A DNA stretch of 62,648 nt, counting the filler, from Kipferlia bialata (Eukaryota), in assembly GCA_003568945.1 (NCBI GenBank). It is 7 parts of 5 records of this genome, joined end to end, with 100 filler letters (N's around TTAATTAATTAA, not from the genome) between each part and the next. Parts side by side here need not be neighbours in the genome. Positions count along the whole stretch, not along the records: positions 10,120 to 25,588 come from BDIP01000698.1; 6 more parts are not named here. One strand, given 5' to 3'. The position numbers were made by a program, and so were the translations under genes. Under the pieces are notes generated by a model, which saw only the letters and a program-made list of their open reading frames with translations, had not been told where the DNA came from and did not search any database. Each line of letters opens with the position of its first letter. Positions within the stretch are counted from its first letter, which is position 1. Positions 1 to 49,908 of this stretch are shown here, piece by piece.

Positions 1-48
1 TCCTTTTTTTTCTCTCTCTCCTGCCCCCCCCCCCCCCCCTTACCCTAG

Positions 49-2739: not shown

Positions 2740-2862
2740 GGGGGTGTATCGTGTTAATAGATACATTTTGTAGTGACGATGTGAGAATGTGACTCGACAC
2801 CATTATGGAGTCCAATACTGCCTTTGCCATTCCGTTGTATTGGGCAAGTATATGTTACGAAT

Positions 2863-5416: not shown

Positions 5417-5542
5417 ATGTACGGGCTCTCTCTCACAGCGTACCGGAAAGAGCACTGGCAGTGCTGCACTGCACCGTTTTTGTTGTGGCACAATAGTCAA
5501 AAGGGTGTTGCTGGTCTCTACCTCGCTACGTTCTCTAGAGAA

Positions 5543-8500: not shown

Positions 8501-9929
8501 GGAGCTGGTGGAGATTGATCTGCTGGGTGAGTGGGCCACTTGTACATTATATGTATCCTATGGTACTCCTGGTATTGTCACCAACCCCCTACCCCCAGGC
8601 AAGGCCCTCCGCAGAGTGAGTGTGTCCTCTGTCAACGATGACCTCAAGACTATCATGGGGTCGCCTCTAGGTGGGTGTTGTGTACACACATGTGTTCAAT
8701 CTATCTATATTCATGTACACCCTCTTATATGCACACACCCTCACCCCAGTCTGTTTCTCCCAGGACGCCGACAGGCTTCCCGACGGATCCACAGTGGTCC
8801 TCGGTCAGAGCGAGACGGTGCGTATTATATATATATATATATATATAATCATAACTATATACATATATTTGTATGTATCAATAATCCGTGTGTGATATAT
8901 ACAACATTAGTATACCTCTATGCATATCCTCACCCCAGGCCCTTCCCATGGCTGTGCAGATGGCCACCCAGAGGGCCCTCAACACTGGCAAGAAGAGCAG
9001 GAAGATGAGGATCACCCTGCTCAGTGACGTCATAGTGGTGCTGGACACACGGCTAAGGTGGGTGTTGTACGTGTGTTGTACACTCACCCATATATATTCC
9101 TTCGACAGTTTAGTGGACTTGTAGCTATTTGATCATACTCCTCACTCCTAGGGTGTGCTGGACCTGGAGGGCAGCAGACCACATCCCAGCCACATACTTC
9201 AGAGAGCCATTCCAGGTGGATATATATGAATACAATTGTGTATGGGTCCAGATAATGGGTACTCTGTTTGTGGAACACGTCTCTCTCTCTCTCTCTCTCA
9301 CTTTCTCTCCCCCTCTAACGCCAGTATGTCCCCCACCCCAAGCGCCTGTTTGACATGCCCCTGTGGGAGGGCGACACTGCCTTCGACCACACCCATGCCA
9401 CCCAGGTCTCCTACCTGCCTGGGGGTGACTTCCTCGTGTCCCTGAGGTCCCAGGACTGGCTGGTCAGGGTGGACTACAGGTACAGAGGGTGGAGTGGGTA
9501 TAACAGTGTAGTAGTATGTGATATTAGTGTGATTACTGCATTCCTCTCACCCCTCAGAGACGGTGCCGGAGACGGTGACATTCTGTGGAAGCTCGGACCA
9601 GGTGGAGACTTCAAGGTGAGGACATGCTATGACAAAGCAGAATGAGAAGACTTGCACTGGGTAGTGGACTGTATTTTTACCCCTCACTGTCAGATCAAGA
9701 CTGGCGAGCAGGCTGCTCTCCTCGATGCCGCAGGGACAGGGGTCTGGTGGAGCCACCAGTTTGCATTCAGTGCCAGTACACTCCCAGACGGAAGGTGGGG
9801 ATATATATATTAGTATAGAGTAGCATATGCCAATATTTCTTTTATTTTTAAGTCTTCCCCCCTCACCCCTAGGCTTGAGCTTGTTCTGTTTGACAACGGA
9901 TGCCGCATCAACCAGCTGCCAGAGGCCAG
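5543..9929 (+). CDS. Bacterial-type arylsulfotransferase (ASST) family protein, >20 exons, 3' partial
   Basis: Exons give PQPVGT, ALVAMYTVPP, LLVGGLEAQTVYEF, ELVEIDLLG, DADRLPDGSTVVLG, DVIVVLD..LRVCWTW, DHTHAT, DFLVSLRSQDWLVRVDYR, GDGDILWKLGPGGDF, WWSHQ and LVLFDNG. The first exon assignment is uncertain. Confidence 0.8.
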
Positions 9930-9974
9930 GTCGGTGTCGTAACATGACATGTCTGCACACCTACTGTATATGTA

Positions 9975-10019
<45 letters not shown>

Positions 10020-10169: not shown

Positions 10170-10565
10170 ACATAATAGGTGGATATACGTACCTGTAGTA
10201 TACTACCGGAGTAGTATACTTATCATATACCTGTGAGGGATAGACTGACAATTACTGGACTATCCCACAAATTTCAATATTTTACCCTAGTGTATCACAT
10301 GAATCTCCGTGATACACGTGTAGTAAACAGTCAGATGGTGCTGATTTCCTTGAGTATGGGTTACGTACTGAATAGAAAATTGCTATTAATGAGAAGAGTC
10401 TCTCATCCACGAGTCATGGATTCCATGACCCCTACACTCATGCTGAAAGAACACCAATCTATTATGGTGGACTACTACTAACACTTGACAAACACACAAT
10501 AAATGAAAACGCAACAACACAATAACACCCCTCCTCTCTCTCTCTCTATCTCTCTCTCTACCTGA

Positions 10566-13142
10566 CTACTGTGGGTTCCTAGTCCGTACACTGGCCATGG
10601 TGTAGGTACCCCCCTTGGCCTTGCCCCTCTGACCTGGTACTAGGACACCGCCTGATATTAGTATAGTCCTGGGTTCGATTCCAAGCGGGTACAAAATGAA
10701 CATCATCTTACCTACTATGGATATCCCTCCACCGACCCTTCTGGTGTATATCCTATGTGGTGCTGATACACACGTGGGTGTGGAGGTATCCCCAGAGGCC
10801 TCCTCTCCCTCTCCCTCTCCCTCTCTCTCTCTCTCATCTTGAGGGGGAGAGAGAGTGCCACTGGGAGAGAGAGTGTGTGTACTGGGTATGAGGCACCAGG
10901 ACTCGATGGCCTGGACAGGGACACTGAGGGTAAGTACGGTATATATATATAATAATATATATACTGTGCAACTAAGGTGTATATATATATATATATATAC
11001 ATATATGCACCAGGACTCGATGGCTTGGACAGGGACACTGGGGGTAAGTACGTATATAATATATCCTATATAACTTATATAGGCTATATAAGTATACTAT
11101 ATCCAGGGACACTGAGGTAAGATTCTATCAAGAGACTGATACATTACGTGTATGTGTATCATATAGACACTACTGCAATTGATGTCGTCAGTTCCTATTC
11201 TTCTGAGTGTGTACCACCTTGTCCCAGAAGAAGTTTAAAATCCAATATACATATAAAATGTTTAAGAATATGTAGAATATATAGAACATACGATTGGTAG
11301 TACCTGTTCACATTTGTCACCATCTTGTCTCTGAACAGATTGAGCACCCTCTCTCTCCCTCTATCATACGCCATACATGTATATATACTGTTATACCTAT
11401 TCTGACTTGTCACCATCTTGTCTCTGAACAGGTTCAGCACTCTCTCGTTCAGATGGGTCGGGACATAGCAGGGGGCCTGGGGTTGAAGGTATATTGACTA
11501 TATATATATATATATATTTATGGTATATACTATTTTGCAGTGTATATATATAGGGCATCTTTCACCTGTAAGAACTCCTCCACCAGAAATACTTAGTATA
11601 TAAAGTATATATAGTGTACATATACTATATATATGTATATATATATCACCTGTAAGAACTCCTCTACGAGGTTATTATATATATGTAAATATATATCACC
11701 TGCAAGAACTCCTCCACCAGGTTACTGGACTGTGCACCTAGGGCCGCCCTGAGACTGCCACCTGGATATTAAGGGTGTAGCAGGAGAGAAGTATTAATTA
11801 AGGTGTAGAGAGGGGACAATATATATAGTACTTGTAGATGGAATGTGTATCAGAAAAGGGACAGGATATCACTCTAGCTATGTAGTATGGGAGAGAAACC
11901 GGTACCTAGTACAAGGTCCCTCTCTATCCTCTCGCACCCAGCCACGCACTGGAGGCATAGAGAGACAGTATCCCTAGCATAAGGAAGATTGATAGTAGCA
12001 CAATAGACTGAAGTAGCGATAAACATCCTTCTCTCACTGCTGTCGAACAACGTATGCTATTATATATGTGAAAATCATGAGAGTATCTTGATAGTACACT
12101 GAGTACTCACTTTGGCACATCTGCCCCCTGGTACAGAGTGGGTGTCTCAACAATGGCTGCAGCAAGGCGGTCGAGAAGCTGAGGAGTGAGAATGATGACT
12201 CAAAACTACACGAGGTCAAAGATAGAGGTATATATACTAAACGAGTATCAGTGATGAGCGTAGTGGTACCTTGTCCCCTGCCCTGACTGCTATTCTGGCC
12301 AGTCGGCGCCTGGTGTTATACAATAAGTGTCTACATGCATTGTATACTTCTACGATTGTCTGCGAATACATATAATACCTAGGGTCTGTCTGGACTGTCT
12401 GTCTGAACCCTTCCAGTCCAGATACCTACATGTATACATACTATATGAGAATCAATATATCACCTATCAATATGCATATATATACCCATACCTTGGGTCT
12501 GTCTGTACAATCTGTCTGAACCCCTCCAGTCCAGACACCAGCAGCATGGCCAGGAAGGCAGAGAGGCTCAGCTCGTCCTCGAACCAACGCACAGCCTCGT
12601 CTCCCTATGGTGAGGGGTAGAGTAGAACCATATTCACTATATCTTTGATATACAATTAGACTACATATCTACAACAACGTATGTATATATATAGATAGAG
12701 AAGCTCGACTTATCCTCGAACCAACGGATAGCCTCATCTCCCTACGGTGAGATATAGAAGTATAAAAGAAAAGAAATGTATATATACTATGCACATATAT
12801 GCGTACGAATAATTACATCTCACAACAGTAATGAACAGCGCATATGAATGTATGTATTATAGTTACCTCTCCCTCTGCCTGGAACAGTGGCATAAAGTGT
12901 ACAGTAATACCCAAATATATGTATAAAAATACATCGATACATCTATATATCCATCAATACATCGTATGTATACCTCTGCCTCTGCCTGGAACAGTGGCTC
13001 CTGGGTGCCAATATATACGATTATGATAGCCAGATATATATATATATATATATATATATGGATACTGTTTCATACCTCTGCCTCTGCCTGGAACAGTGGC
13101 TCCTGGGTGCTGATGGGCTGGGGCTCAGCTCTGGGATAAGTG

Positions 13143-13177
<35 letters not shown>

Positions 13178-16100
13178 GCATAGATTCATAATATGGGGCT
13201 GATGGGCTGGGGCTCAGCTCTGGGATAAGTGTAAGAAGAACAATTCAACAGACGCAAACACACATACACACATATATATATACAAATATATCTACATATT
13301 CCCGAGATGTGGTGCTGATAGGATGGGGCTCAGCTCTAATGGTGAGGTAACACTATCAATCCGGGACCAGGAACTGCATATATGACATATGTAGACACTT
13401 CAACACATACCTCTCCCATGTTAACTGCCATGTGTTCATGCCACCGTGGGGGTCAGGCTCAGTCATCCTGGGGTCAGATATATAGAGACGATATACATAG
13501 AAAACAGTATATAACAGTATATATATAGTAGCCAGTAGTTTAGAATATATAGTATGTGAATGCGTCCATGGGGGTCTGGCTCAGTCATCCTGGGGGTCAG
13601 AGATCTGACCTATATATGTATGTATACAATATGTCATGTGTTACAATGTATATTATGTGTCATACAACTATTAAGTCACAATTGTAACTCTTAGCAGATA
13701 TTTATCACATCATTTGGACCGAATCGCGATATTGGGATATAAGTGTAAGTGTTCACGCTACACAAGTAAGGATAGTAATGACACTTTCGTACCTTGAGGA
13801 CAGGACTCCGTTACGAGGTGTCACCCTGGCCAGCTGGCCCTGAGAGTGAGATTAATACACTGTCCATTCACGTTTGTATATAGTATAGTAGTGAGAGGAA
13901 GGAGCCAAAGACAATTCGTGGGTAAAGTGGGAGAGTGAAAATGCACTAAAGGGCTAGAGCCAAATACATATTTATGTGTTTAGTGTATATGCGCTAGATG
14001 CGTTGCATACCCTAGTGAGTCCAGTGCTAATAGGTATCTCTGGCACATTGAGCACAGGGGGAGCCAGTGTATACTATATACATATAGAGTATACATCCAG
14101 TATATACATAGTATATATACTAACTCTCGTTAACCCTGTACTGATAGGTATCTCTGGCATATTGAGCACAGGTGCAGCAAGGCCATAATATACTATACTA
14201 TATATACTTTATACTATATACTATATAAAAGTGTATACCCGCGTTAACCCTGTACTGATAGGTATCTCTGGCACATTTAGCACAGGGGCAGCAAGGCCAT
14301 AATATACTATACAATATATACTCTATACTATATACTATATACATAGTACATACCCTTGTCAGTCCTGTGCTTATGGGTATCTCTGGCACATTGAGCACAG
14401 GTGCAGCAAGGGGCACAATGTAGTCAGCGGGGGAGTACCATCTGGGAATGAGTGTGTACACAAATCTATATATACGTATACATATATCATTGTAAGATAC
14501 TTCATTCATTGTGCTATTATAAGAATATGAAGAAAACTAATGTATGCACCAAAATAGAACACTACATGTGGTATTGAGCTAACCAAAGGTGGTATGTGGT
14601 CAGCTAGGCTACTTGTTCATACATATATCCTCGTGACAGTTGAAGTACAGTAGTATCTGCCGCAATTACAATAACACATACGAATATATAGAGTGACAAT
14701 AGCCATTACCTTACAAAGTCTATCAGCTTCGCCCGGGGGTTCGCAGCCTGAGGTTAGATTCTCTCGTACAGACTCATTCCAGATTCGCATTCGTTGTCGT
14801 ATCTGATACATACCCAATAATGCAAAAATAGTATGTTGAGAGAACTATAGCAACGTAATCCATACAACTCGATCTACTCATCTTCACGGTATCTCTGTAC
14901 CTTGAATGCCGACATGTCACTCTGCAACTGCCTGCCAAAATGGGTGTGCAGCCTAGGTGTCAAAATGTACACAACATTTACATACATATTCATACATGCA
15001 TAGGATCACAGAACGACGTGATGTTACACTGCTAAAGCGGGTATGTAACCTGGGGTTATAGAGGTAAGAAACAGCGACGGAGGGATAGAGAGTATTACCA
15101 GCATCCTAGTACCTTGCGTCCTGCAAGTCAAGCAGGTGATTCTCCCCAAGGCTACTCTCGCTCTCTGCCTCTCTACCCACACCTTGGTACTCATCTACCC
15201 CCTCTATACCATCTCCACCCTCTATCCCTGTCGTTGTATCTGAGTAGTCTCTGGGGTCTAGTGATGCATAGGGAGAGGCCATGGACGAGGGTACACTCTC
15301 CATATCTCGAGGATCAATGGAGGCGTAGGGGGAGGCCAGAGAGGATGAAATTCTTTCAGCCTCTCCAGTGGGGGCCATACTGGTACCAGTGACCTAAGAT
15401 AAGCCATATGATAAGAATAAGTCTTATTATGCTATCTAGCACAGGTAACAACATACTATGTGAGAGAGAGAGAGAGAGAGGGGACAAGTACCTCAGTCTT
15501 GCTCCTTCCTATCCCCACTCCCCCCTCTGGCCTCAGTGTCTCCCAGGGTACCACCCCACACGACTCCCTGGCACCTGGAGACACCACACTGTCCCCTACA
15601 CTCCTACCACCCCTACTGCGCATGCTCTCCCCTTTGGCGGACCAGCTTCTGATGCTGCTCTCTCTCTCTCTCTCTCCCTTGCTGGTACTGCCGTGCCTAC
15701 TTGCCCTGTCTCTCTGTGAATCCACTAGGTTCTGGATCTCTCTGATCCTGGGGGTGAGTGTCAACACTATGATATGTATACAAATATATGCTCTAACTGA
15801 GCATTAATATCTTTTCAATCTGTACCCTTATACTCACTTCAGCAGGGATGACTCGACTTGGTCCTCGGTGGTGTTGGGTGCTGTGAAGCAGTACGGCACA
15901 CATATGGGCTCATTACAATCCACACACAGCAAGGGTAGTACCATCCTGACACCCCTGGGCTGTCTCACAACCACACTATCTCTTTCCCTGTCCCTCTCAG
16001 GTGTCTGCAGTGGGTGGTTATTCACGTACTCACCCCCACCGACACTGGGGGAGAGTATAGAGTGCAGCGAGTAGTCCTCACTGCTCCGTGTAGCTGGTAT

Positions 16101-18038
16101 CTCGAACCGCGTAGTATGGACAGCAGGGCTAGCGGCAGTGGAAACGGCTGGAGAGGCCGCGTAGGCCCCCAAGCTCCCACTCATTCCCTCTATGCTCTCT
16201 AAGGGGCAGGGTGTAGGGACACCAGGGGAGAGAGTAGCGGCGCTATAGGGGGAGAGAGAGGCTCCGTTGTAGGAGGAGTCTGGGGATACACTCTGTCCAT
16301 AAACTAGGTCGGTCATGGATATGCCACCTCCTCTACCCATGGTTGATAGTTCTCTCTCCCTCTCTCGCTGTCTCTCTCTCTCCCTCTCCTCTCCGTACCG
16401 CTCTGCAGCACTCTCTCTGGCTATGCGCTCTCTCTCCTCCTTGCCTCTCTCAGCCGTGAAGAAAGTGTCTGGGGTTAAGGGTGTAGGAAGAGAGAGAGAG
16501 AGAGTGAAGACCGTGTCTGGGGTTAAGGGTGGAGAGAGAGAGAGAGAGACAGTGAGTGAAGAACGAGTCTGGGTATATGCGTGGAGAGAGAGAGAGAGAG
16601 ACGAAGAGGGAGAGAGAGTACCTGTGTATTGCTCTACGGGCATGACCAGGTCCGCACTCTCACTGGACTCACTCTGCTCCAGGATGTCGGACAGCACAGA
16701 GTTGGAGGCTGGTATGAGGATAGGTAAGTACGGGGTAAGGATAACACAGAGGGTAAGCTATAATGTGTACTCTATTAATATTAACTCACTCTGCTCCAGG
16801 ATATCAGAGAGGACACAGAAGCTTTGGTTACGGTCTAATAGGAGAAGACCGAGTATCTTCAACGACGTTACCTGTAGCCCTGCTGCCGACACTCTCCCTC
16901 CTAAACGAGGACGCACTGCTACGTCTGATGGTAAGTGCAGATGCATACCACATACTATATACTCATCTGTGCTCACTCGACCACAGTATGTACTCTAACA
17001 CTGTCTATGTATAAGTAGCAGTCTCACACTCATTAATGATACATACTGTATACTCATATGTGTTATCGTGTATTTCTATACCTTGTTACTCTAGCACTCT
17101 CCGTGTGGTCTGGCACCGGTAGGGAGTGTGCCTCATACAGGGAAAGAGACCCTCTTCTATACACAGACACATCCCTGTTGTTAAGATATTATCTCATAAG
17201 GTATAGTAGGAACAGTGGACATCTAATAGTATCTGATGGAGTGACAGACTGCCCCTTCTATACACAGACACATCCCTGGAATCATCTATGGAATCAATCT
17301 TTCAATCAATTAGGAAATTACGTCATATACACAGACACGTCCCTGTTGTTAAGAGAAAACTAGGAAGTACAAGACTAATAGTCCACATCGCCTCTGTTGC
17401 TACCAGCACTCATTTCTAAAGCACACATATTCTGTGAGTCCCGTGACCTGTCCCATCTGGACTCACTATACACACATATGTATANNNNNNNNNNNNNNNN
17501 NNNNNNNNNNNNNNNNNNNNNNNNNNNNNNNNNNNNNNNNNNNNNNNNNNNNNNNNNNNNNNNNATGTATATGTATATATATACCTGTTCTGGGAGTCCC
17601 GTGACCTGTCCCATCTGGATGCCTCACTTCTGCGTCTGCCCCGGGTGACATCCTTCTGTCTGGTTCTGTAGGGTGAGAAATTCGTACTGATATATAAGTA
17701 TATGTATGCATACTTTGTAGGAAGAGTGATTGAGATCTGGTCCCATAGGGTGAGAAACGGAACAATATACATATATATGCATATGTATGTATGCATACTC
17801 TGTAGGAAGACTGAGAGAGAGAGAGAAACTTCTCTCTGGTCCTGAAGGGTGAGATGAAAGTACACTAATCATACACTACTATGGATATATAGAGAAGTAT
17901 ATACGGGTTATGGGTGTATACATGCGTGTATACGTACCTCCCACTCCACGGACATGGGAAGTGTCATACTGATATAAATACGCATATATATGTGTATTAC
18001 TATGTATATATGCGTATATATATGTATATTTATATATG

Positions 18039-18069
<31 letters not shown>

Positions 18070-18559
18070 ATTACTATGTACCTACCACTCCACGGGCACG
18101 GCTCACCGGCCTCCAGCATTGCCTGAGTGTTAGTATACACAAACAGAAATTTATACCTATAAGTACATGTATATGCGAAGTATAGGGTGAGGTAAGGCCT
18201 CAAGTAGGGGCCTAGAAGCTGTGATGTCTCTTTGTATTTGTAACGAGAGTATGAAATTGAATGTATACAAAGGCTCAATACGTCAATATACCATTTACAT
18301 ATGGAGAGTAGAGTAAAGTGGAATATACCTGCACCCCTGGTGGCACACTGGCCATGGGCTGGTCCTTCTTGTTGACTTGACTAGAACCCTGGTATTAGAA
18401 GAATGCGCCTCTAACACAGATGTCTTGACTATATTAGTATGCGTATATGTATACTATTATATATTGTAATATATGCATACCTGAGCCGGTGTCCCCACCA
18501 TGCAGTCTGTGTCGGCAGAGGGGACATAGAGAAGGGCCTGGAGTAAGCAACATATATCG

Positions 18560-18592
<33 letters not shown>

Positions 18593-19469
18593 TACATAGA
18601 GGAGGGCCTGGGGTTACCACAAGCAACACACGAGAGAATGAGAGGGAGAGACACTTCATGAGAGATGTATTCATCATCTGCTTCTCTTTGTCTCTCCCTG
18701 ACTACATTGAACAACAGTGGACTTCTGTTAACAGTATAGTACAATACATACCTGGTTAAGCACCGCCAGCTTCTGGTACAGCAGGTGCTGGTGGGGGCCA
18801 AAGGTAGTGCCTGAGAGGTAAGACATGGAAGAGGTACAATTTGTAGGTATTCTACCCGAAGTAGTGCAAATAGTGAATCCATTACCTATGTATATATGTA
18901 CATATATATGTATATATGGATCCATTACCTATGTATGGAATGAGTCGCCTCTTCTGCCAGTAGAGAGAAATAACAATCCAAGCAAGGATAGAGAGGAAGA
19001 ATGATGATACTTCAGGGTACACTATAGTGCAATGAATCCAGTGCAGCGCCTGGTACCTATATATGGAATGAGTCGCCTCTTCTGCCAGTACGTATGTACA
19101 TATATAGAACTATATATATATAATCAATATAATTATATATGTACATATATAATACCCAGGTCCAAAGGAAGTGCCTATGTATGGAATGAGGCGCCTCTTC
19201 TGCCAGTACAAGTATATGTGAAGTATATATGTAAATATATAGAAACAGAGACGTTACAGAAATGAATCATTATATGGAATGAAAAGAAATGACGTCTGTA
19301 TAGTTGATTGAGACTGTTACCTACGTATGGAATGAGTCGCCTCTTCTGCCAGTACTAGGAAGAATGATAATAATAATAATAATACTTCAGGATACACTAT
19401 AGTGCAATGAATCCAGTGCAGCGCCTAGTACCTATATATGGAATGAGTCGCCTCTTCTGCCAGTACGAC

Positions 19470-19520
<51 letters not shown>

Positions 19521-22500
19521 TACATATATGTGTGTATTACTAGTATTGCAAAGCGTGCATCCACTACCTATGTATGGAATGAGTCGCCTCTTCTGCCAGT
19601 ACTCAGCTATCCTCATGGTGAAGAGAGAGAAGAGACCTGGGGTTAGATGTGAAAGACTCGGCTATCCTCATGGTGAAGAGGGAGAAGAGACCTGGTGTGA
19701 GCATTGGAGACAACAACACTTCTGCTACTGTGAGGCGATTGCACATACCCTTAACCTACTGGCCGGAGTCCCTGACACCCCTTGACCAGTCTGCATACAT
19801 TCAAATGCACATAAATATATACTTACATCTCTCCAGTAGTTATAGGGTAACATTCTAGTATATTGCCTGTTCTCACCTTTTACTTCTGCCGGTCTGAGTC
19901 CCTGACACACCTTGACCAATCTGCATATATATATATATGCACACAATACAAATACTTCATATTATCCGTATGTATATACAGTGTTGCATACCCTTGACTT
20001 CTGCCGGTCTGAGTCCCTGACACCCCTTGACCAGTCTGCACACCAGGCACTGCCTGGGACAGGACTTGAGCCTACAGTCAAGTTGCTTCCAAACATGAAT
20101 ATATGCGTGGATATTACTACATGCATGTATTGATGTATATGAAATATCTCACCTCATGCTCTCCTGTTCTGCCCCCTTCCTGCCCCTCTCCTTCTCCCAG
20201 GCTGGGATGTCACTCTCGGACATGACTGAGGGTGAGAATGGTATAATATATACAACAGATAATGATCAATTCAGTATCTTCGGAAGAACAGTATTCTTAG
20301 AACATCGTCCTCACATACCTGTCTCTATGGCCTGTCTGACATTGGGTGTGATGTCACTATCAATCTATATCCCTAGTCTATTATACATTAGAATACATGA
20401 ACCATATGTATATATATATATATATACACTCAATATACCTGTCTCTATGGCCTGTCTGACATTGGATGTGATGTCACTATCACTCTATATCCTTCGTGTA
20501 TAATACATTAGTATACATGAACTATATTTATATATAAATATCCACTCAATATACCTGTCTCTATGGCCTGTCTGACACTGGGTGTGATGTCACTATCACT
20601 ACATATACTACGTATACACTGGGTGTGAACTACTCCATATATACTCTATACCTGTCTCTATGGCCTGTCTGACATTGGGTGTGATGTCACTATCACCAGG
20701 AGGGGTGTGCATACAGGTCACAATGGTTCGTAACACCTACAATTAGATGTAGTGTAGTATACTAAGTATAGAAAGAGACATAGAAATGCCTCAACAATAC
20801 AATAACACAGATAAGAAATGCATATATATGCCCAGGTGGATACAACAAGTGACATGGTACGCAGAACCTATGGGTGGTGTAGAGAGATATACTCACAAAC
20901 AAGTATATATGTAGACACTGTAGATACTCTTGTGTATATATACCTGTGACACCCTGTACACAGTGGGCTGGGGCACATACTAATGTATAAATATACATAT
21001 ATAACATGTACTATTACTGTACAATATATACAATTACATACAAATACATATATAAATACATATATACATACACATACCTGTGACACCCTGTACACTGTGG
21101 GCTGGGGCACATACCAGATGCGCCAGTCCTGAGATAAGAAAGGTAGAGTCAGAAGATAAGAAAGGAAGGAGAGGAGGTATGACGAGAGTTATTGACGAAG
21201 CAGTCCACATATATATAGGAGATACTTCTGCTGGTACATACCGGCGCCTCATGGACGTTCAGACCCTCCGTAAGGGTGCCTTGAAGTAAGACTGCTGAGA
21301 GAGAGAATGAAAGAGAGAGCGTACCAAATATGGACATCTTCCAGCAGACACTGCATCCAGCCCTTAGAGGTGACTATTGTGGATATTTACACATGTGTGT
21401 ACACTATACAACACACCTGACGGGCACAGTGGGAACACTTTAGTATATATAAACTGATGGAACTGATGGGCACGGTAAGAAGTGTAATATATACATATAA
21501 ATATATATATAATTTACACCTGACGGGCATGGTGGGAATGCCACTGCCAGACAGAGTGATCCAGCTGGAGACACAGAGGCACCCAGGGGGCATAGAGGGG
21601 AGGGTGGCTAGGTATGAGAACACTAACTACTTGGAGACTGACAGACACTACCTATGTGTCTCGAATGGTATATATAGACACAAGCATACATATATACATG
21701 GATACCTGCTGCATTGGGAAAGGTGTCTCAAAGAGCATTGAGCATGCCTCCACAACCCCACCTGTAAGGGCACCAGCCCTGGAGTTAGTATACANNNCAT
21801 GCCTCCACAACCCCACCTGTAAGGGCACCAGCCCTGGAGTTAGTATACATTCACTATACATATATACATATACATTGAGAGAGATAGAAATTGATATATA
21901 GTATACGAATATGTATATATATATATGCACAGAGCATGCCTCCACAACACCCCCAGTCAGGGCACCAGCACTGGAGTTAGTACAGAGTCCATACTCGCAA
22001 TATACATATATGAAACTACCGTCCAATAATCACCCTAGATGCGGCACCTACCTGGGAATGTATACATACCACTAATAATATTAATAGTTCTAATGTATTC
22101 ACATATACAACTTATACCATACCCTAAGTGTGGCATGACCCTGGGTATGTCCCTCCTGACCAAGGGGACAGACAGGGTGGGGTGGGTGTCTATCACCTAG
22201 TGTGAGGAACCAGATATATATACACAAATTTATAGATATACACACAGTTGAGCACTCAACGAGAAAGAGACTCTAAGGGTATTGAGTAGTACTCTGTACC
22301 TTGTGTCTGTAAGATGCCGCGTAGGACTGGCCATAGAGCAGCTGGGTGCCTGGGGGTAGAGCTATACACGTAAACATATGCGTGTGTGTCAATACCGCTA
22401 TAGACAATGTAGAGTAGATGGGGCAATTGCATACACATATACTACACTTATACCTATGAATCTATAGAAATGTGAACATGCAATTTCTAAATACACTACG

Positions 22501-23306
22501 TTACATAAACCTTTGAACTCTACCCCTGCTGGTCCACCACCCCTGCCACAGACCATGAGGTAAATGTATATTGTATAATGCATATATATATACACAATGC
22601 AATATCCTATATATATAGGTATTTGGTATACATACCTTTGAACTCCACCCCTACTGGTCCCCCTCCCCTCCCACAGACTATGAGGGGCAAAGAGAGTGGG
22701 GCAACGACCTGACGTTAGAAAATGAAAAGTGCATGTCGAGTCACACATCTATACATATTGTGAATTACTATACGAGAATCCACCGGAGGGTAGATGTGTA
22801 CCTTCACACTATTGCTGTCTCCAGGTGTACCAGTGACTGATATCCCAGGGCTCTTCACTGGTGTCCCCCACTCCCTCTGCCACCCACCGCCACCTCTCTC
22901 CCTCGCATCAACCTCTCTGCCTGCACCCTCGGCAGACCTGGGAGATTAGGGTATATACATATATATGAATATTAGTATATATATATATATATACACTATA
23001 TATTAATTCACACACACATATATGGGCTTGGGATATCTCTACCTCTACCTGCACCCACAGCAGACCTGGAGGTAAGACACTATATATATGTATAGGGGCT
23101 TGACACACAATACGACTCATGGAGTCCTGTTGAATGTATAAGAAAGGAATCTTACCTCTCCATCAATGTGGCCAGGGACAGTGACTCTGGGTGTGACAGG
23201 GAGTGGCTCAACAACCTATGCAGAGAGACAGCTGCTTCGGAGAGGGCTGGGGTTAGAGAGGGTATATATATTCATACAGTTAGAGAGACAGAGAGAGAGA
23301 GACAGA

Positions 23307-23355
<49 letters not shown>

Positions 23356-23605
23356 TGATCCAACAGTCTGTGCAAGGAGACAGCTGCCTCAGATAGGGCT
23401 GGAGTGAGGACAGAGAGATGTGCGTATTGACTACACTAACTGCCGACAGGGACAGTAAACATTCATACATTACAAACATATACATATATTACCATCTATA
23501 TATATATGATTATCTATAATACATAGAATATCATATTGTATCTATATAACCATTTGTATATACCTGCCAGCAGTGATGGTAGCAGTGCTGACCCTGGCAT
23601 AGTGG

Positions 23606-23643
<38 letters not shown>

Positions 23644-24563
23644 TATATACAATATATAGATCTATAATTATACAATATAATTATACATAGTGATGTTACT
23701 TGTGCATACCTGCCAGCAGTGATGGTAGCAGTGCTGACCCCGGCATAGTGGTTGGTATCTGGGTGTGCGTGTACTCCCATGGAAGGGTGTCAGCCTGTGG
23801 TATAAGAGAGAGAGAGAGAGAGAGAGGCAGGGGGAGAGAGAGAGAGAGAGAGAGAGATAGAGCGTGTACTCCCATGGTAGGGTGTCAGCCTGAGAATTAG
23901 GTAGATGGTGAGAGATATCTAAGAATAATGGTAGGGTGTCAGCCTATGACATCAGTGAGAGAGAGTGAGAGAGAGTGAGAGAGAGAGAGAGAACCAACAC
24001 TCATCACCCGTGTCAGAACGACAGCCAATGACTAAATAATGAGAGAAAGAAGACATATAATAGAAATACTACAGATGGAGATTAGGAATGGAGGGGGGGT
24101 GAAAGTGTGTGTGATATATTCAGAGAGAGATACGTACCGCAGATGGGGAGGGAGCGCCACCGGCTAGCACTCTTGTGTCGGGGACCAATAGAAGTGCGCC
24201 TGGGGTTAATGATCACGGGGGATCTAGTGAGAGTGGAACTGTACCTGTAATGCCCAATAGCAACAGAGGCATGACTGCACCCTATGTCGTATGCAAAAAT
24301 GTAAGTATATACATGTATATGTATATATATATATACTCTACCTGTGATACTTAGCAGTAGCAGTGGCATGACTGCTGGGACTGCACCATCAGACGTATGC
24401 ATATATATATTATTACAGATATATATATACACATATGCATGTATATATACTATATAAACCTGTGATACTTAGCAGTAGCAGTGGCATGACTGCTGGGACT
24501 GCACCCTCCGTGAGTACAGGGGAGTGGGGGAAGCGCATCTGGAGTTAGTTAATAATGTATACA

Positions 24564-24602
<39 letters not shown>

Positions 24603-25400
24603 GTATATATGAAGAGAGAGTGAGAGGGATACCCTCTGTCAGCACAGGGGAGTGGGGGAAGCGCATCTAGAGTTAGATTCAAATAGGAGAGAGGTCTCAA
24701 TTGTTTCGGAACGAGAGAGAGAAGTACAGGGGAGAGGGGGAAGCGCATCTGGAGGGTTACAGTTGGAGAGACATGGAACGGAATATAGGGATCCATACAC
24801 TAATATATATCCCCTGGTCCCTCTCTCTGCCCCTATCTATATGTGTGTATGTGAGTATATTGTACTCACCTGTCCACTTGACAGTGCTGCTGTAGGCGAC
24901 AGTGGGTACTGGACGACAGAGAGAGATGGGGGCACAATCACTCTCTCCCCCTCACTATCTAGATCATGTCCCTCATGTGCTGCAGACACAGAGGATATGG
25001 AGTGACATATACCCAACCCCCCGTGGGAGAGAGAGGAGTCATCCTCAGAGACTGACGGCAGCACATGCACAGAGTCTCTCTCTCCCTCCTCACCCTCCTC
25101 CTCTCTCTCTACATCTACGGATACAAGAGTGTCAGCAAGTGACCCCCCATCTCCCTCCCCCTCTCCCTCCCTATAGAATGCATCGTCAGTAGATGATGAT
25201 ATCTCACCGGCCTCCTGCCGCTGTCTCTCTCTCTCCCTCTCCCTATACAAATCCTGACGTAAGCAAAGGGAATGACCATCAAATAGTATATCTTGCGCCA
25301 TCATATGTCAGAAAACAGACAATGGATAGTACCTGGTATGTGCTCTGCAATGAACACCGCCTCACATCAGTCCCAGGGGGGAGGGCGGCAGTCTTGCCAG
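10566..25400 (-). CDS. RAB3GAP1: Rab3 GTPase-activating protein catalytic subunit (multi-exon, 5' partial)
   Basis: Spliced motifs MRIAEYWQKRRLIP, HLLYQKLAVLNQ, EPICVP...TTEDQVE, LQSDMSAFK-AANPRAKLIDFVR-WYSPADY, GVLSSRM...NTWQLTWERAEPQPISTQEPLF and PHRIY match the Rab3GAP1 signature SDMxxFKAANP...DFVRWYSPxD. Stop TAG at 10566-10568. Confidence 0.85.
14008..14441 (-). repeat. Functional exon (14354-14441) plus three downstream exon-3'/donor echoes
   Basis: The segment coding LAAPVLNVPEIPISTGLTR, followed by GT, recurs at about 14239-14295, 14125-14181 and 14011-14067. Confidence 0.9.
18882..19693 (-). repeat. Array of exon-end echoes around the exon SLFTMRIAEYWQKRRLIPYIG
   Basis: tacctatgtatggaatgagtcgcctcttctgccagta (or close variants) occurs at about 18926, 19053, 19173, 19318, 19428 and 19565 (real exon). 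An acceptor-side copy lies at about 19656-19693. Confidence 0.9.
20317..20737 (-). repeat. Three donor-side echoes of the exon ending DSDITPNVRQAIET
   Basis: tacctgtctctatggcctgtctgacattgggtgtgatgtcactatca occurs at about 20317, 20436, 20552 and 20649 (real exon). Confidence 0.9.
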
Positions 25401-44315: not shown

Positions 44316-45160
44316 TTATCTCAGGAGATTATATTGATACATTTGAGGCTCTCTCTCTCCCTAGCCCTCGGCCATGTATGTAGTAGTAATATGGTTATGT
44401 AAATGGTGTGTATATGCGGAAGGCAGACAGTGAGGCAATATATATAGTAGATACTAAGAGCGTATGGAAGAGAGAGAAATGCAGAAAGACAGAGGGAGTC
44501 AAGGAGAGACATGGAGAGAGAGAGAGAGAGAGAGAGATGGGGTGTCCGGATGCAATGATAAGGGATCATATGAGGCCACATACATTTTGAGCAGGGACAG
44601 AGACTTCTCCTCACAAAGCCGCAGCTCTGCTTGGTGGCGCAAGAGTTGCCGGATACTGGGCATTCCCAAGTTCGAGTTCAATGACCCAAGGGTGGCCAAA
44701 TATTGGGCAAAAGAAGATTCGAAAGAGCTGGGAGCCACGTACTTTTCGAAATTCAAAAACTTTCCGGAAAATCCTGTTTCCGCCTCTGGACCTGAAAACA
44801 CCTCTAATTCTTGAAGCAGTATCCTCGAAGGGGTCATGCTAATGAGGGAGCGACTCTGAAGGCAGCGACTCGGGACGCTGCACCCTATCTTATCCGCTTT
44901 TACGACTATTTGGCCGGAAAGCTTCGGACTTTCCCTGGACCCTTTAATCCCACAAGTACGGGCTCCCAGACCTATTCAAATAGGTCTGCCCTCTCCACTG
45001 TCTTTAGAATTGAACATCCCACCCATCGTTCATTGGTTATCCCTCTATTATCACATTTTACTTCTTGCCCTTCTTCTTGCCCTGCCCTGCTATTATTCAT
45101 CGAGTATAGAACCTTAAATTCAACACATTTTGCAATAATAATCTATTCTCTGTTACTCAG

Positions 45161-47371
45161 TTACTTCTTGCCCTTCTTCTTGCCCTGGCCTGCCTTGAAG
45201 AACATGATGTCTCCGTCCTGAACGACGTAGTTCCTGCCCTCCATGGTGACCTGTGATCGGTGTTAGTATCATATATATGTATATATTATTACTGATACTC
45301 AGTATCAGTATGAGCGTTAGATCTAGACTAGACCTAATTAACACTACGATCAGTATATGTATCATGTGTGTAGATGATACTGACAAGTGACCTTGCCAGC
45401 TGCATCTCCCCCATACTTTTGCGTCAGTATCAGAATTATTATCTCATTATCACATGGTATTTCATATTCTGACCTTGCCGGCAGCCTTTGCCTCTGCCTC
45501 TCCACCATACTCAACTAGGTCATCGTATCTGGTCACCTCAGCACAGATGAAGTTGTCCCTGGGGTGTGAGAGGGAGAGAGACAGAGAGAGAGCCACTGGC
45601 TGGCAAATAGTCAGTTGCCCCTTGTATGAGTATTATTCTTGAGGAACAGAGAGGGAGAGAGAGAGGGAGATAGAGAGAGAGAGATGTACCTGAAGTCTGA
45701 GTGGATGACGCCAGCGGCATCGGGTGCCTTGCATCCCTCTCTGATGGTCAGTGTCAGTATCAGTATCAGTATACTGATACCTGATGGTCCAGCACCTGAC
45801 CTCCCTAACACTACATCCACCCTCCCACACTCTCTCTCTATACTAATACATATATACATATATATACATATATCCATACACACATACCTGATGGTCCAGC
45901 ACCTGACCTCCCTCACACCAACGGTGAAGAAGTGGATAAGGTGCAGGGCGCGGTAACCTTAGGTAAGGCGCACAAATATATAAGTAATGAGAGGTACATA
46001 CATGATATATGTATACAAATATAATTCTATACTATAAACACACATGCTGAAAGAAATAGTATATAATGGGATGATATATATTCACAACATACCTGTGGCA
46101 ATGATCTTCTTGAGGGCGGTTCCCTTGCCCTCTGCCTCCAGAGCAGCCTGCTCCTCGGGGGTCATGTAGTGCAGCTCCTGCTCGTACTAGGGTGAGAGAC
46201 ATAGAGACAGACAGGCAGAGAGAGAGAGAGAGAGAGATACAATGAGTGTCCTCGGGGGTCTTGTAGTGCAGCTCCTGCTCGTACTAGAGTGAGAGAGGAG
46301 AAGAGAAGAAGAAAGAGAGAGAGACTAGCATACTAGACTTATCGGGGGTCATGTAGTGCAGCTCCTGCTCGTACTGATGTAAGTGATATAGAGACTAATA
46401 GACAGATGGAGAGAGTAAGGTACTATTAGTGTCCTCGGGGGTCATGTAGTGCAGCTCCTGCTCGTACTGGGGTGAGTGGTGTATATAAACCGATAGAAAG
46501 AGATATATGGTGGGAGAGAGAGAGAGTAGTGCAGCTCCTGCTCGTACTGGGGTGAGTGATAAGCCTATCAGATATAAGAGAATGGCAGAAAGAGAGAGAG
46601 AGAGGCAGAGAAGGTACCTATAGACTGAATGTGATTAAGAGAGAAAGAGACAGAGAGATAGATGCATATATACTACCTGAGCACTGAATGGGATGATGGG
46701 ATCATGTGTATTGAGACAGTACGAGACAGATAGAGAGAGAGTGCAAGCCAGTACCTGTGCGCTGAATGGGATGATGGGGTCGGTCTTGGAGGACTCCTTG
46801 ATCCAGGCTACGACCTAGATTGTGAGGAGAAGTGTGATTACACGATGTCTCAGTTCTATATATATAGTATATATACCTTCTTGAGCCACTTGTTCTTCTT
46901 CCTGAGGTAGTCCTTGGCAGACATCTCTCTCTCTCTCTCTCTCTCTAATATATATATATGTACACACAATGCACAAATACCTTCTTGAGCCACTTGTTCT
47001 TCTTCCTCAGGTAGTCCTTGGCAGACATGTTGATGAGGTAGATGACAGGCTTGGAGGTCAGGAGGAAGAGGTCCCTGAGGTGAAATGTATATATATACAC
47101 ACAGACACATTAACACATATGTATTCATTAATGAGAGAGACACTTAGATGACAGGCTTGGAGGTCAGGAGGAAGAGGCCCCTAGTATACGATATAGGTGG
47201 TAAATATAAATATAACAATACAGAGCATATGAGAGATATAGTTGTAATAGTCAGATAGCAGGTATAGAGGTCAGGAGGAAGAGGTCCCTGAAGTGAGAAT
47301 TGTTTTATACATGAAGAAGAAAGATAAAGAGAGAGAGAGTATACCTGATGATGAGTATCTCAGAACTTGGT

Positions 47372-47406
<35 letters not shown>

Positions 47407-48751
47407 AAGAGAAAGAGACATACATGTATAGAGAGAGAATGGTACCTGATGATGGGGATCTCAGCAGACTTCCAGTCGACGTTACGGGCATCGACGTTGT
47501 TCCTGGGGTAAATGGAGACCAAACACACAATCTTATGTATATATGTGTACGGTGTATGTATATAATATACTTACTTCAGGTTCTCGAGGCACTTGTGGAG
47601 GACAGGCAGCATATATATGTGTATGTGTGTATATATAGTATCAGTATCAGTGTCAAGTACTGTAGATATACACTTACTTCAGGTTCTCCAGGCACTTGTG
47701 CAGGACTGGGAGCATGTCCTTGGCATCCTTGTTGGAGGACATGCCCTGGGGGGAGAATACAAGTGAACAATGTGAATAGAATTCTAAAGACTTTGTATAT
47801 GGTAATGCTGAGTACAGTATAGCCGGTGTACCTTGTTGATTGCGTTCTGGCACTCTGCAATCTTCCTCTCAAGGGTGGCAATGTCCTTGAAGACAAGCTC
47901 ATCGTGGATGATGGAGAGGTCCCTGAGAGTAAGTATATATAAACACACACACCTATATATATGTATATATATAGAGAGATAGAGAGAGAGAGTGGCAATG
48001 TCCTTAAACACAAGCTCATCGTGGATGATGGAGAGATCCCTAAGAGTAAGGGATGTCATATATGAAGAGATAGAGAGAGACAGGGTGGCAATGTCCTTGA
48101 ACACAAGCTCATCGTGGATGATGCTAAGGTCCCTGGGGTTAATAGATGTATATAGGGAGAGAGAGAGGGGGAGAGAGAGAGAGAGAGAGAGGCAATGTCC
48201 TTGAACACAAGCTCATCGTGGATGATGGAGAGATCTCTGAGAGTAAGAATATTGATATATATATATACACACACACACACATATATATATATATAGAGAG
48301 AGAGAAGGGGCAATGTCCTTGAAAACACGCTCATCGTGGATGATGGAGAGATCCCTGAGGGTAAGGCTTGTATAGGAGAGGGAAGGGGGGGGAGAGACAG
48401 AGAAAGACGATATAACTGGGTCACGAGCTCTCCTTCAACGCATGTGTCTCAACACACGAGATGTATATATAGACACTAAACATATTGGATAGGCACACAC
48501 ACACATATATGTAAATATATATCATTATTACATACCTGACAGGGTCCACCTCTCCCTCGACGTGTGTCACCATGTCGTCATCAAAGAGACGCACAAGGTG
48601 GTAGATGCCGTCAACGGCCCTGGAAGTCAGTGACGACAGAGAATACACAATAATATATGTACTGAGAGAGAGAGAGAGAAGGTGATAGATGCCGGCCATG
48701 GGAGTCGGTGAGAGCAATACATAGTTGACAAGGAAATATTAACAAATACAT

Positions 48752-48785
<34 letters not shown>

Positions 48786-49908
48786 GAGTAATGGTGTTGA
48801 ATGTACATATGCACAATATAGATACACACCTGATGTTGGAGAGGAAGGCATTGCCAAGTCCCTTTCCCTCGTGAGCTCCACGCACAAGTCTGGGGTGAGG
48901 AAGGGGGGGGGGGGGTTAGGGAGAGATTGAATTATTGGGAGGGAGAGTGTGTGTGGGAATGGCTTATATAGTAGCCCAAGTACACCCACCCTTCGATGTC
49001 GATACCCCCGTGTACTTAAATATATGCTAGAGAGACAGAGTATGATAGAGTGTCAGTACATATATAGACCCACCCTGCGATGTCGATGACCTCCAGGTGG
49101 GCAACAGATACACAAATATATAGAGATTGAGGTAGAGATGATGATATAGTAAGAGTGCAGATATATACCCACCCTGCGATGTCGATGACCTCGAGGTGGG
49201 CAGGCACCTCAGAGGCAGGTCTGATGTTCTTGCGGAGCCACTCGAACCTCTCATCAGGCACAGCAACACGGGCCTGGAGTAAGAGAGGTACTGAGTTGTA
49301 ATATAGAGACAGGGGGAGAGAGAGAAAGTGAAGAGCATTGGGCTCCGCAATTTATATACATAGATCGTGAGAGAGAGAAATACTGGAAGTTACATACGTC
49401 AGCTAGCATTGAGTAAACTAGTTAGGAGAGGAAGGGATCATGTACATTGGTATACCAACGGGGGGATATGATACGAAGCTCATTAAGGTAGAGGTACACT
49501 AATATACATATAAGAGAGAGAGAGACACACACACACATAAAAGCTTGGTACCTTGTTGGGGTCGATGGTGTATGGGATAATGGGAATATACATACAAGAC
49601 GCACTATATATGTTCACCTTGTTTGGGTCGATTGTGCAGAATGGGAAGTTCTCAGATGGCACCTCCTGGTTGCTCATCATGTTGAACATCAGGGACTTGC
49701 CGACATTGGGGAGGCCAACGATACCTGGGGTGAGCTGGGAGTCACCCCAGCAGCATATTAGCGGAGAGTGTACATAAAGATATGGTATGATAACTCGCAA
49801 TATTGAGTAATTCTTCCTCCACTCACCGCAAGAGAGGGTGTTCTTGGAGCGTCCCAGCAGCTGGATCTCAGTTGTTGGCTCGTCGTCACCCTTGGTCTTC
49901 TTTGCCAT
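45161..49908 (-). CDS. OLA1: Obg-like ATPase 1 / YchF, complete multi-exon gene
   Basis: Motifs [98 protein letters not shown] and [16 protein letters not shown]. Stop TAA at 45161-45163. Confidence 0.95.
46155..46558 (-). repeat. Four acceptor-side echoes of the OLA1 exon starting [11 protein letters not shown]
   Basis: gtagtgcagctcctgctcgtact occurs in the real exon (about 46166) and again at about 46263, 46353, 46446 and 46526. Confidence 0.9.
47832..48356 (-). repeat. OLA1 exon (47832-47922) plus four upstream acceptor-side echoes
   Basis: The segment coding [15 protein letters not shown], each time preceded by its own YAG, recurs at about 47992, 48082, 48191 and 48309. Confidence 0.9.

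What the first reader, a model, noticed from the sequence alone, without database searches (positions are those of the whole stretch)
14008..14441. Ten of ten substitutions synonymous in an intronic exon-half copy
Over 19 codons (LAAPVLNVPEIPISTGLTR) the echo at 14239-14295 differs from the real exon at GCA/GCC, CTC/CTA, CCC/CCT, ATA/ATC, AGC/AGT, GGA/GGG, CTG/TTA (2 nt), ACA/ACG and AGG/CGG. All are silent, including first-position Leu and Arg changes. Two further echoes each show one amino-acid change (V>M, A>P) and several silent ones. All keep GT, but none has the conserved WYSPADY 5' part or a typical CTNAC-CCC-AG acceptor. This is the clearest evidence that echoes were or are under coding selection.
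Basis: seen in the sequence. Interest (0 to 1): 0.82.

Follow-up and report, generated by a model that had tools for sequence, protein, structure and literature searches.

The report
Intronic exon echoes keeping the code
In the free-living protist Kipferlia bialata, many introns hold short copies of the neighbouring exon's edge that differ from the working exon mostly by silent changes even though the main mRNA skips them, likely because recombination keeps re-copying them from working versions of the exon on other chromosomes, which would make them a record of hidden genetic diversity.

Summary
Confirmed. The copy at 14239-14295 (minus strand) matches the last 19 codons of exon 32 of a Rab3GAP catalytic-subunit gene (database name: Kipferlia bialata) with 10 of 10 changes silent. 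It is one of 97 such 'echoes' in six genes of the window: 165 silent versus 84 amino-acid changes, dN/dS about 0.10-0.16, where dead duplicates give 0.5 or more. DNA contigs support the assembly; the one RNA-type contig splices the true exon and skips the echoes. The amino-acid changes that exist look random (2 stops, 6 frameshifts), do not track silent divergence, and flanking intron DNA is mostly unrelated. Best reading: the echoes are non-coding tandem duplicates whose exon part is likely refreshed by recombination from diverged working alleles, so the selection was imported. One result resists this: silent changes run GC-to-AT towards the echo 56:26, which keeps rare real use of echoes open. 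No second isolate was found, so the key test is not done. The scan noted similar copies in a sea urchin gene, where exon-only selection explained the bias; here it does not.

The parts
14354..14441 (-). True exon 32 of 43 of the Rab3GAP catalytic-subunit gene; the only copy with both acceptor and donor
   Evidence: Exact spliced match to P0001; its own letters appear in RNA-type contig 9 of run X2 (tables 5c and 7)
14239..14296 (-). Echo 1: copy of the exon's last 19 codons plus GT, 115 nt downstream; 10 silent, 0 amino-acid changes
   Evidence: presence in DNA contig 8 of run X1 inferred from its 3 other letters when placed on echo 2
14125..14182 (-). Echo 2: sister of echo 1 (shared junction, 6 shared derived codons); V>M plus 8 silent nt; GT kept
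14011..14067 (-). Echo 3: separate lineage (8, 11 and 12 nt from exon, echo 1, echo 2); A>P plus 6 silent nt; GT kept
   Evidence: inside DNA contig 7 of run X1 with 0 other letters
13840..14353 (-). 514-nt intron holding the three echoes and their AT-rich spacers; spliced from the first donor to the acceptor before 13839
13793..13839 (-). Exon 33, joined to the true exon 32 in the RNA-type contig
10569..25398 (-). Rab3GAP catalytic-subunit gene (5' partial), 43 exons; 44 echoes, in 22 of 42 introns, both downstream (exon 3' part + GT) and upstream (branch + AG + exon 5' part)
45161..49908 (-). OLA1 (YchF/Obg-like ATPase) gene, 15 exons; 19 echoes, 9 of 14 introns, plus one echo of the stop-codon region at 45058-45090
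31146..35074 (-). Ten-exon gene (my own model) with 19 echoes, two with stop codons

Best explanation
The echoes are tandem duplicates of about 100 bases that straddle an exon edge and are spliced out of the main mRNA, and their exon-like part is likely re-copied again and again by out-of-register recombination from working versions of the same exon on other haplotypes, so the silent differences would be imported allelic divergence rather than selection on the echo itself. Steps: (1) shown: unit of median 106 nt = about 35 nt of exon edge with its splice signal plus about 69 nt of AT-rich spacer, in arrays of 1-5; (2) shown for one gene: only the copy with both acceptor and donor enters the main mRNA; (3) shown: differences carry a protein-level filter that a dead duplicate cannot have; (4) inferred: two clocks, about 0.2 silent divergence gained in working exons and about 0.035 random decay since the last refresh; (5) inferred: exons are the only alignable islands between diverged chromosomes, so breaks in microsatellite-rich introns are repaired by exon-to-echo pairing; (6) untested: mismatch-tolerant Dmc1-only recombination without end-joining, reported for fornicates, would permit this; (7) untested prediction: wild isolates differ at roughly 10-20% of silent sites.
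For: dN/dS 0.105 (63 echoes, 2 annotated genes) and 0.155 (97 echoes), P 3e-17 and 6e-16 against exon-only selection; 4e-13 and 4e-12 on unique events. The same detection on simulated dead duplicates gives 0.49-0.57. Amino-acid changes look unfiltered (mean BLOSUM -0.67 versus -0.61 expected, 2 stops in 54) and do not rise with silent divergence (rho -0.16, p 0.16), while silent counts are overdispersed (chi2 151 on 96 df). Silent divergence does not grow with distance from the exon (0.215, 0.198, 0.175). Intron flanks are near background (12 of 88, 14%, above the 95th percentile), also beside 9 echoes with no codon difference, and array members share breakpoints: old duplicates with a young exon part. 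Forward simulation: same-chromatid exchange gives 0.53-0.74; exchange between haplotypes with theta 0.1-0.2 gives pS 0.18-0.21, pN 0.04, ratio 0.19-0.22, close to observed 0.20, 0.036, 0.18. Echoes also occur at a stop codon and a start codon, away from splice sites. Fornicates lack NHEJ and Rad51A and have two Dmc1 (PMC8516963 section 8); Dmc1 residues aid repair at 20% or more divergence (PMC6719624 section 17).
Against: Silent changes are polarised: 56 GC>AT versus 26 AT>GC from exon to nearest echo, 46.5 versus 22 after removing the decay share (p 0.004), 23 versus 7 families (p 0.005); my simulation of this model gives only 1.1-1.15:1. Sister echo units differ by 10 silent and 9 amino-acid changes, between neutral (p 0.012) and the window-wide bias (p 0.08). 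Echo 1 itself has a spacer close to the exon's own (30.5 of 40) yet 60% silent divergence. No diverged second haplotype is visible in DNA run X1 over 10200-14187 (no other letters; contigs drop variants). No second isolate was found. The four genes with my own models are weaker (0.26-0.42; only one reaches p 0.03 alone).
Confidence: 0.58

Rival explanations
1. Echoes are used: a small share of transcripts or cells builds the exon from an echo half (RNA-level joining at the repeat, or DNA-level cassette conversion), so amino-acid changes are purged while the copy sits in the intron, and codon preference is relaxed.
For: GC>AT polarity fits silent changes arising on the echo side (equal per-opportunity rates 0.101 and 0.097); sister echoes 1 and 2 differ by 4 silent and 1 amino-acid change; splice dinucleotides kept in 49 of 52 and 38 of 41; echo 1 has a young-looking spacer but old silent divergence.
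Against: RNA-type contig has the true exon at the focal junction and skips echoes at the other 9 joints listed; offsets random modulo 3; no excess of in-frame GT/AG; random amino-acid spectrum, stops and frameshifts; no known route to protein.
Confidence: 0.2
2. The donor was a second subgenome or lineage (hybrid, introgression or long-diverged homologues of an asexual diploid) with somewhat lower GC3; exon-edge pieces were stranded in introns while heterozygosity was lost.
For: Would explain the GC polarity (echo GC3 0.653 versus exon 0.69) and near-saturated echoes (pS 0.6-0.7 with no amino-acid change); the species is reported as likely diploid from two k-mer peaks (PMC5874029 passage).
Against: The focal family holds three deep lineages (8-12 nt apart) and silent divergence is a continuum from 0 to 0.7, so one event does not suffice; OLA1 echoes match their own gene, not the 89%-identical paralogue, at 10 of 10 informative codons.
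Confidence: 0.15
3. Assembly or mixed-strain artefact: haplotype versions of an exon placed in tandem.
For: The DNA run may be the source of the window, so it is not an independent sample; no contig spans the whole array; exon and echo 1 were outside the laid stretch.
Against: Independent contigs cover the unique parts at even depth 425-467 with no other letters; one 960-nt contig links echo 3 and part of echo 2 to the next two exons; another carries echo-1 letters together with exon-like sequence.
Confidence: 0.04
4. Plain dead duplicates: only the exon is selected, and 10 of 10 is the tail of many comparisons.
For: This explained a similar case in a sea urchin gene (scan note e1-9861148, unchecked); four small gene models here are individually compatible or nearly so.
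Against: Predicts dN/dS 0.49-0.57 through the same pipeline; observed 0.105-0.155, P below 1e-11 in every pooled count at kappa 2; predicts similar flanks and a positive silent/amino-acid correlation, neither seen.
Confidence: 0.03

Closest known systems
Human F7 intron 7 37-bp repeats with duplicated 5' splice sites (PMC4238797, passages seen; lead from scan note e1-9861148)
   Same: Head-to-tail repeats next to an exon that carry spare donor sites; the first donor is the normal one.
   Different: One locus with highly conserved units; here 97 copies in six genes, on both sides of exons, with diverged spacers and a strong silent-site bias.
Gene-pseudogene concerted evolution by gene conversion (review PMC3924837, passages seen)
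   Same: Non-functional copies kept alive by conversion with a working copy.
   Different: Units are 15-58 nt exon edges about 100 nt from the donor, in housekeeping genes, with amino acids conserved rather than diversified; same-chromatid conversion does not give the ratio.
SmPoMuc exon-intron tandem repeats of Schistosoma mansoni (PMC2576457, passages seen)
   Same: Exon-intron units separated by microsatellites, shaped by conversion and unequal exchange.
   Different: Those are whole, expressed exons with homogenised introns; here partial exons are skipped and the intron part is the diverged one.
Mutually exclusive duplicated exons (Dscam type; recalled, no call)
   Same: Tandem exon-like copies with silent-biased differences.
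   Different: Echoes have only one splice site, do not keep frame and are absent from the main mRNA.
Intron gain by tandem genomic duplication (Rogers model; recalled, also named in scan note e1-7522326)
   Same: Short local duplication involving coding sequence and splice signals.
   Different: Echoes enlarge existing introns (median 325 versus 103 nt); no new intron position was shown.

Membership tests
Junction-spanning tandem repeat (F7 intron 7 type) | Unit contains exon edge plus splice signal, head to tail | tested here: met
   93 anchored echoes in 59 families; GT 49 of 52, AG 38 of 41; median period 106 nt
Junction-spanning tandem repeat (F7 intron 7 type) | Normal splicing uses the outermost (true) site | tested here: met
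   RNA-type contig 9, joints over 10200-14187; one contig of one run, RNA status a guess
Junction-spanning tandem repeat (F7 intron 7 type) | Units highly similar over their whole length | tested here: not met
   Spacers near background; 2 of 88 near-identical
Mutually exclusive alternative exons | Each copy has its own acceptor and donor | tested here: not met
   One site per echo; cryptic in-frame pairs at chance level
Mutually exclusive alternative exons | Copies appear in mature mRNA | tested here: inconclusive
   Absent from the dominant contig; contigs drop rare variants
Gene-pseudogene concerted evolution | Dead copy younger in sequence than its flanks (conversion tracts) | tested here: met
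   9 echoes with no codon difference have flank scores -3.5 to 13.5 of 40; shared breakpoints within arrays
Gene-pseudogene concerted evolution | Shared polymorphism between working and dead copy across individuals | not testable with these tools
   No second isolate found
Silent-cassette diversification (VSG, immunoglobulin pseudogenes; recalled) | Donors supply amino-acid diversity to the expressed copy | tested here: not met
   47 of 97 echoes have no amino-acid change; changes are random
Introner-like elements (recalled) | Same element recurs in unrelated introns | tested here: inconclusive
   Within the window the exon-like repeats pair with the adjacent exon and the dispersed families listed are simple repeats; the rest of the genome was not available
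Rab3GAP catalytic subunit (host gene) | Pfam PF13890 and similarity to homologues | tested here: met
   P0001 precomputed PF13890; three homologues at 29-34%; echoed stretch lies in a variable insertion after the conserved motif

The most novel reading that the evidence does not exclude
The echoes are a genome-wide set of spare half-exons that stay under amino-acid selection while sitting in introns, because cells occasionally build the working exon from them (by Dmc1-driven cassette repair in DNA or by repeat-guided joining in RNA) - a backup coding layer in housekeeping genes with no described counterpart.
Probability: 0.2. Interest if true: 0.9.

Novelty: new variant of a known kind. Interest (0 to 1): 0.68.

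Why it matters
If the best reading holds, one genome stores samples of other haplotypes beside its exons: a readable record of very high silent diversity and of inter-haplotype exchange in a free-living fornicate, a group in which sex and diversity are poorly known (recalled), and a natural footprint of Dmc1-only recombination. It also shows that a reduced spliceosome (87 of 174 proteins found, PMC6679479 passages) picks true exons among near-perfect decoy donors and acceptors 100 nt away, which points to exon definition in short-intron genes. It warns that low dN/dS in an intronic copy need not mean the copy is translated. If the bolder reading holds, it is a new way of keeping backup coding sequence.

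Tried and rejected
No whole genome was available, so all counts are from the 62.6-kb window. No RNA holder was on record; one run is only guessed to be RNA. Metagenome scans found no close relative: none for Rab3GAP among 120 pattern hits; best-segment identity at most 58% among the 80 OLA1 loci kept. No second Rab3GAP copy of this species among the candidates scored (weak evidence). Paralogue as donor: rejected for OLA1 (10 of 10 codons match own gene). Read-through to an echo donor: rejected (offsets 115, 229, 343 all shift frame; 29 of 97 multiples of three). Cryptic in-frame exon swap: chance level. Third-position hypermutability: rejected. Frozen snapshots of an evolving exon: rejected (no rise with distance, no silent/amino-acid correlation). 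Same-chromatid conversion: ratio 0.53-0.74. Gradient of constraint towards the splice site: none (0.12-0.21 in five bins). Five of 102 candidate echoes were dropped before counting (one simple repeat, three weak matches without the splice dinucleotide, one start-codon echo); they would add 4 changed amino acids and 2 silent changes. Echo families at 36400-36970, 40720-41040 and 29320-29480 were left out because their frame is uncertain. No tRNA genes. A Pfam scan of single exons was not obtained (searches had frame errors).

Full report
Setting. The window is a set of eukaryotic contigs joined by N spacers. A 210-residue exon matched one database protein at 100%, named Rab3 GTPase-activating protein catalytic subunit of Kipferlia bialata (P0001); a second gene matched OLA1 of the same species (P0002). 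Exact spliced mapping gave 43 exons for P0001 and 15 for P0002. The finding lies in the 514-nt intron after exon 32 (14441-14354, minus strand).

Observation. Three copies of the exon's last 19 codons follow at offsets 115, 229 and 343, each ending in GT. Echo 1 has the ten silent changes listed; echo 2 has V>M and eight silent changes; echo 3 has A>P and six. Ten of ten silent has P 4e-4 if only the exon is selected. Echo 1 extends about 10 nt upstream with a V>M change and a 1-nt gap. The echoed stretch is a variable insertion after the conserved motif in three homologues.

Reality of the DNA. Two coded runs hold the region. Laid on 10200-14187, DNA run X1 covers the unique parts at depth 425-467 with no other letters listed; a 960-nt contig joins echo 3 and part of echo 2 to exons 33-34; a 2261-nt contig placed on echo 2 shows 3 other letters, the number by which echo 1 differs there (inference). 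X1 may be the source of the window, no contig spans the array, and exon 32 and echo 1 lay outside the laid stretch. In run X2 (RNA is the tool's guess) one 4701-nt contig is spliced at ten listed joints; the letters at the focal junction and its loose end are those of the true exon. Contigs drop rare variants, so minor use of echoes is not excluded.

Extent. Self-comparison showed 154 local repeat pairs. A nucleotide-only search around the exons of six genes (two annotated, four my own models) found 102 candidates; I dropped 5 and kept 97. There are two mirror kinds: exon 3' part plus donor downstream (GT kept in 49 of 52 anchored), and branch plus AG plus exon 5' part upstream (38 of 41). Median echo 35 nt, period 106 nt, arrays of 1-5 in 59 families. 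They occupy 22 of 42 Rab3GAP introns and 9 of 14 OLA1 introns, but none was found around 48 predicted exons of contig 1-10019, whose introns are richer in GC (0.46-0.48) and poorer in TA repeats (28-42 per kb) than five of the six echo-bearing genes (0.30-0.40; 75-130). Echoes also copy the OLA1 stop-codon region and another gene's start.

Coding imprint. Over 1054 codons: 165 silent and 84 amino-acid changes, dN/dS 0.155; over the two annotated genes 120.5 and 41.5, 0.105 (kappa 2; P 6e-16 and 3e-17 against exon-only selection; 4e-12 and 4e-13 counting each variant once per family). The four self-modelled genes are weaker (0.26-0.42). Shifted frames give 2.5 and 2.1; 169 of 249 mismatches are at third positions. 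Third-position transversions occur at 54 of 465 four-fold and 6 of 392 two-fold codons (p 1e-9). Simulated dead duplicates give 0.49-0.57 through the same detection. The sequence in echoes has therefore passed a protein-level filter.

But not as living exons. The 54 single-base amino-acid changes have the random spectrum (BLOSUM -0.67 versus -0.61; 2 stops); 6 of 7 indels shift frame; offsets are even modulo three; in-frame cryptic GT/AG pairs match shuffles. Amino-acid changes per codon stay at 0.07-0.08 in three silent-divergence bins and 0.04 in the highest. Intron flanks fall to background within about 15 nt and stay there even beside 9 echoes with no codon difference, while array members share breakpoints.

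Mechanism. These facts fit two clocks: silent divergence of about 0.2 gained in working exons, and about 0.035 random decay since the echo was last written. A haplotype has one working copy, so the donor must be another haplotype (inference). A small forward simulation (200 haploids, 300 sites, 5000 generations, possibly short of equilibrium) gave ratios 0.53-0.74 for same-chromatid exchange and 0.19-0.22, with pS 0.18-0.21 and pN 0.04, for exchange between haplotypes at theta 0.1-0.2; a coalescent version reproduced the overdispersion, but the observed rho of -0.16 lies just below its range (lower bounds -0.08 to -0.14), and two near-saturated clean echoes arose in 5-28% of runs. Fornicates lack NHEJ and Rad51A and carry two Dmc1, with mismatch repair present (PMC8516963, section 8 and passages read, supplements not opened; per-species detail there may bear on this). 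Dmc1-type residues help repair at 20% or more divergence (PMC6719624, abstract and section 17). Very high silent diversity is known in Paramecium (PMC11334263, passages). The link of these to echoes is untested.

What resists. From exon to nearest echo, silent changes run 56 GC>AT to 26 AT>GC, with equal per-opportunity rates, as if they arose on the echo side (p 0.004 after removing decay; 23 versus 7 families); the simulation gives 1.1-1.15:1. Echoed exon parts are not richer in GC3 than other short-exon codons (p 0.72). Sister echo units differ by 10 silent and 9 amino-acid changes. Echo 1 has a spacer close to the exon's own. No diverged haplotype shows in X1, and no second isolate was found. 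These leave room for rare real use (0.2) or a donor lineage of lower GC3 (0.15).

Known comparisons. Closest are the F7 intron 7 repeats (PMC4238797, passages), gene-pseudogene conversion (PMC3924837, passages) and SmPoMuc repeats (PMC2576457, passages). The species' genome paper reports 124,912 introns and likely diploidy; a term search of its main text found 0 occurrences of 'duplicat' and no passage on such copies (PMC5874029, passages only, supplements not opened). Six literature searches aimed at the phenomenon (listings and abstract starts seen) showed no description of it; the library lacks most subscription papers. The scan's notes hold a sea urchin case of the same layout whose bias (43 of 107 silent) was explained by exon-only selection (unchecked); none for this genome.

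Verdict. A real, window-wide feature; a new variant of junction-spanning tandem repeats with a coding imprint far beyond what dead duplicates give. Best explanation: refresh from diverged working alleles (0.58). Interest 0.68.

Noticed in passing
window 13076-13589 (minus strand), Rab3GAP introns 34-35 and many others: Introns hold spare donors after the true donor and spare branch+AG acceptors before the true acceptor; the RNA-type contig uses the outermost pair. This suggests exon definition or nested splicing in a short-intron genome with a reduced spliceosome.
   Followed up: partly
window 1-10019: Three predicted genes (48 exons examined) have no echoes and GC-richer introns, so echo density is regional. 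The first looks like replication factor C subunit 1 (recalled motif, not tested).
   Followed up: partly
window 45058-45090 and 35120-35145 (minus strand): Echoes of a stop-codon region (103 nt downstream) and of a start-codon region (71 nt upstream), with no splice site involved.
   Followed up: partly
window 48082-48132 (minus strand): An OLA1 echo has a serine codon-set switch (TCC versus AGC), which suggests a long history in a working exon.
   Followed up: no
window 52570-52625 (minus strand): A very diverged exon-like copy after the exon ending at 52799 keeps a similar amino-acid pattern; it may come from a paralogue of this gene. The exon at 53140-52799 seems to change frame near a G run.
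   Followed up: no
P0003 (not in window): A second OLA1 of the same species, 89% identical over 250 residues, on a 2717-nt contig; paralogue or homeologue.
   Followed up: partly
window 21743-21849: An identical 52-nt echo abuts a 3-N gap and may be an assembly duplicate.
   Followed up: no
window 36400-36970, 40720-41040 (plus strand), 29320-29480 (minus strand), 37649-37814: Further echo families whose reading frame I could not fix; left out of the counts.
   Followed up: no
window-wide: Echo period (median 106 nt) is close to the length of echo-free introns (median 103 nt); unexplained.
   Followed up: no
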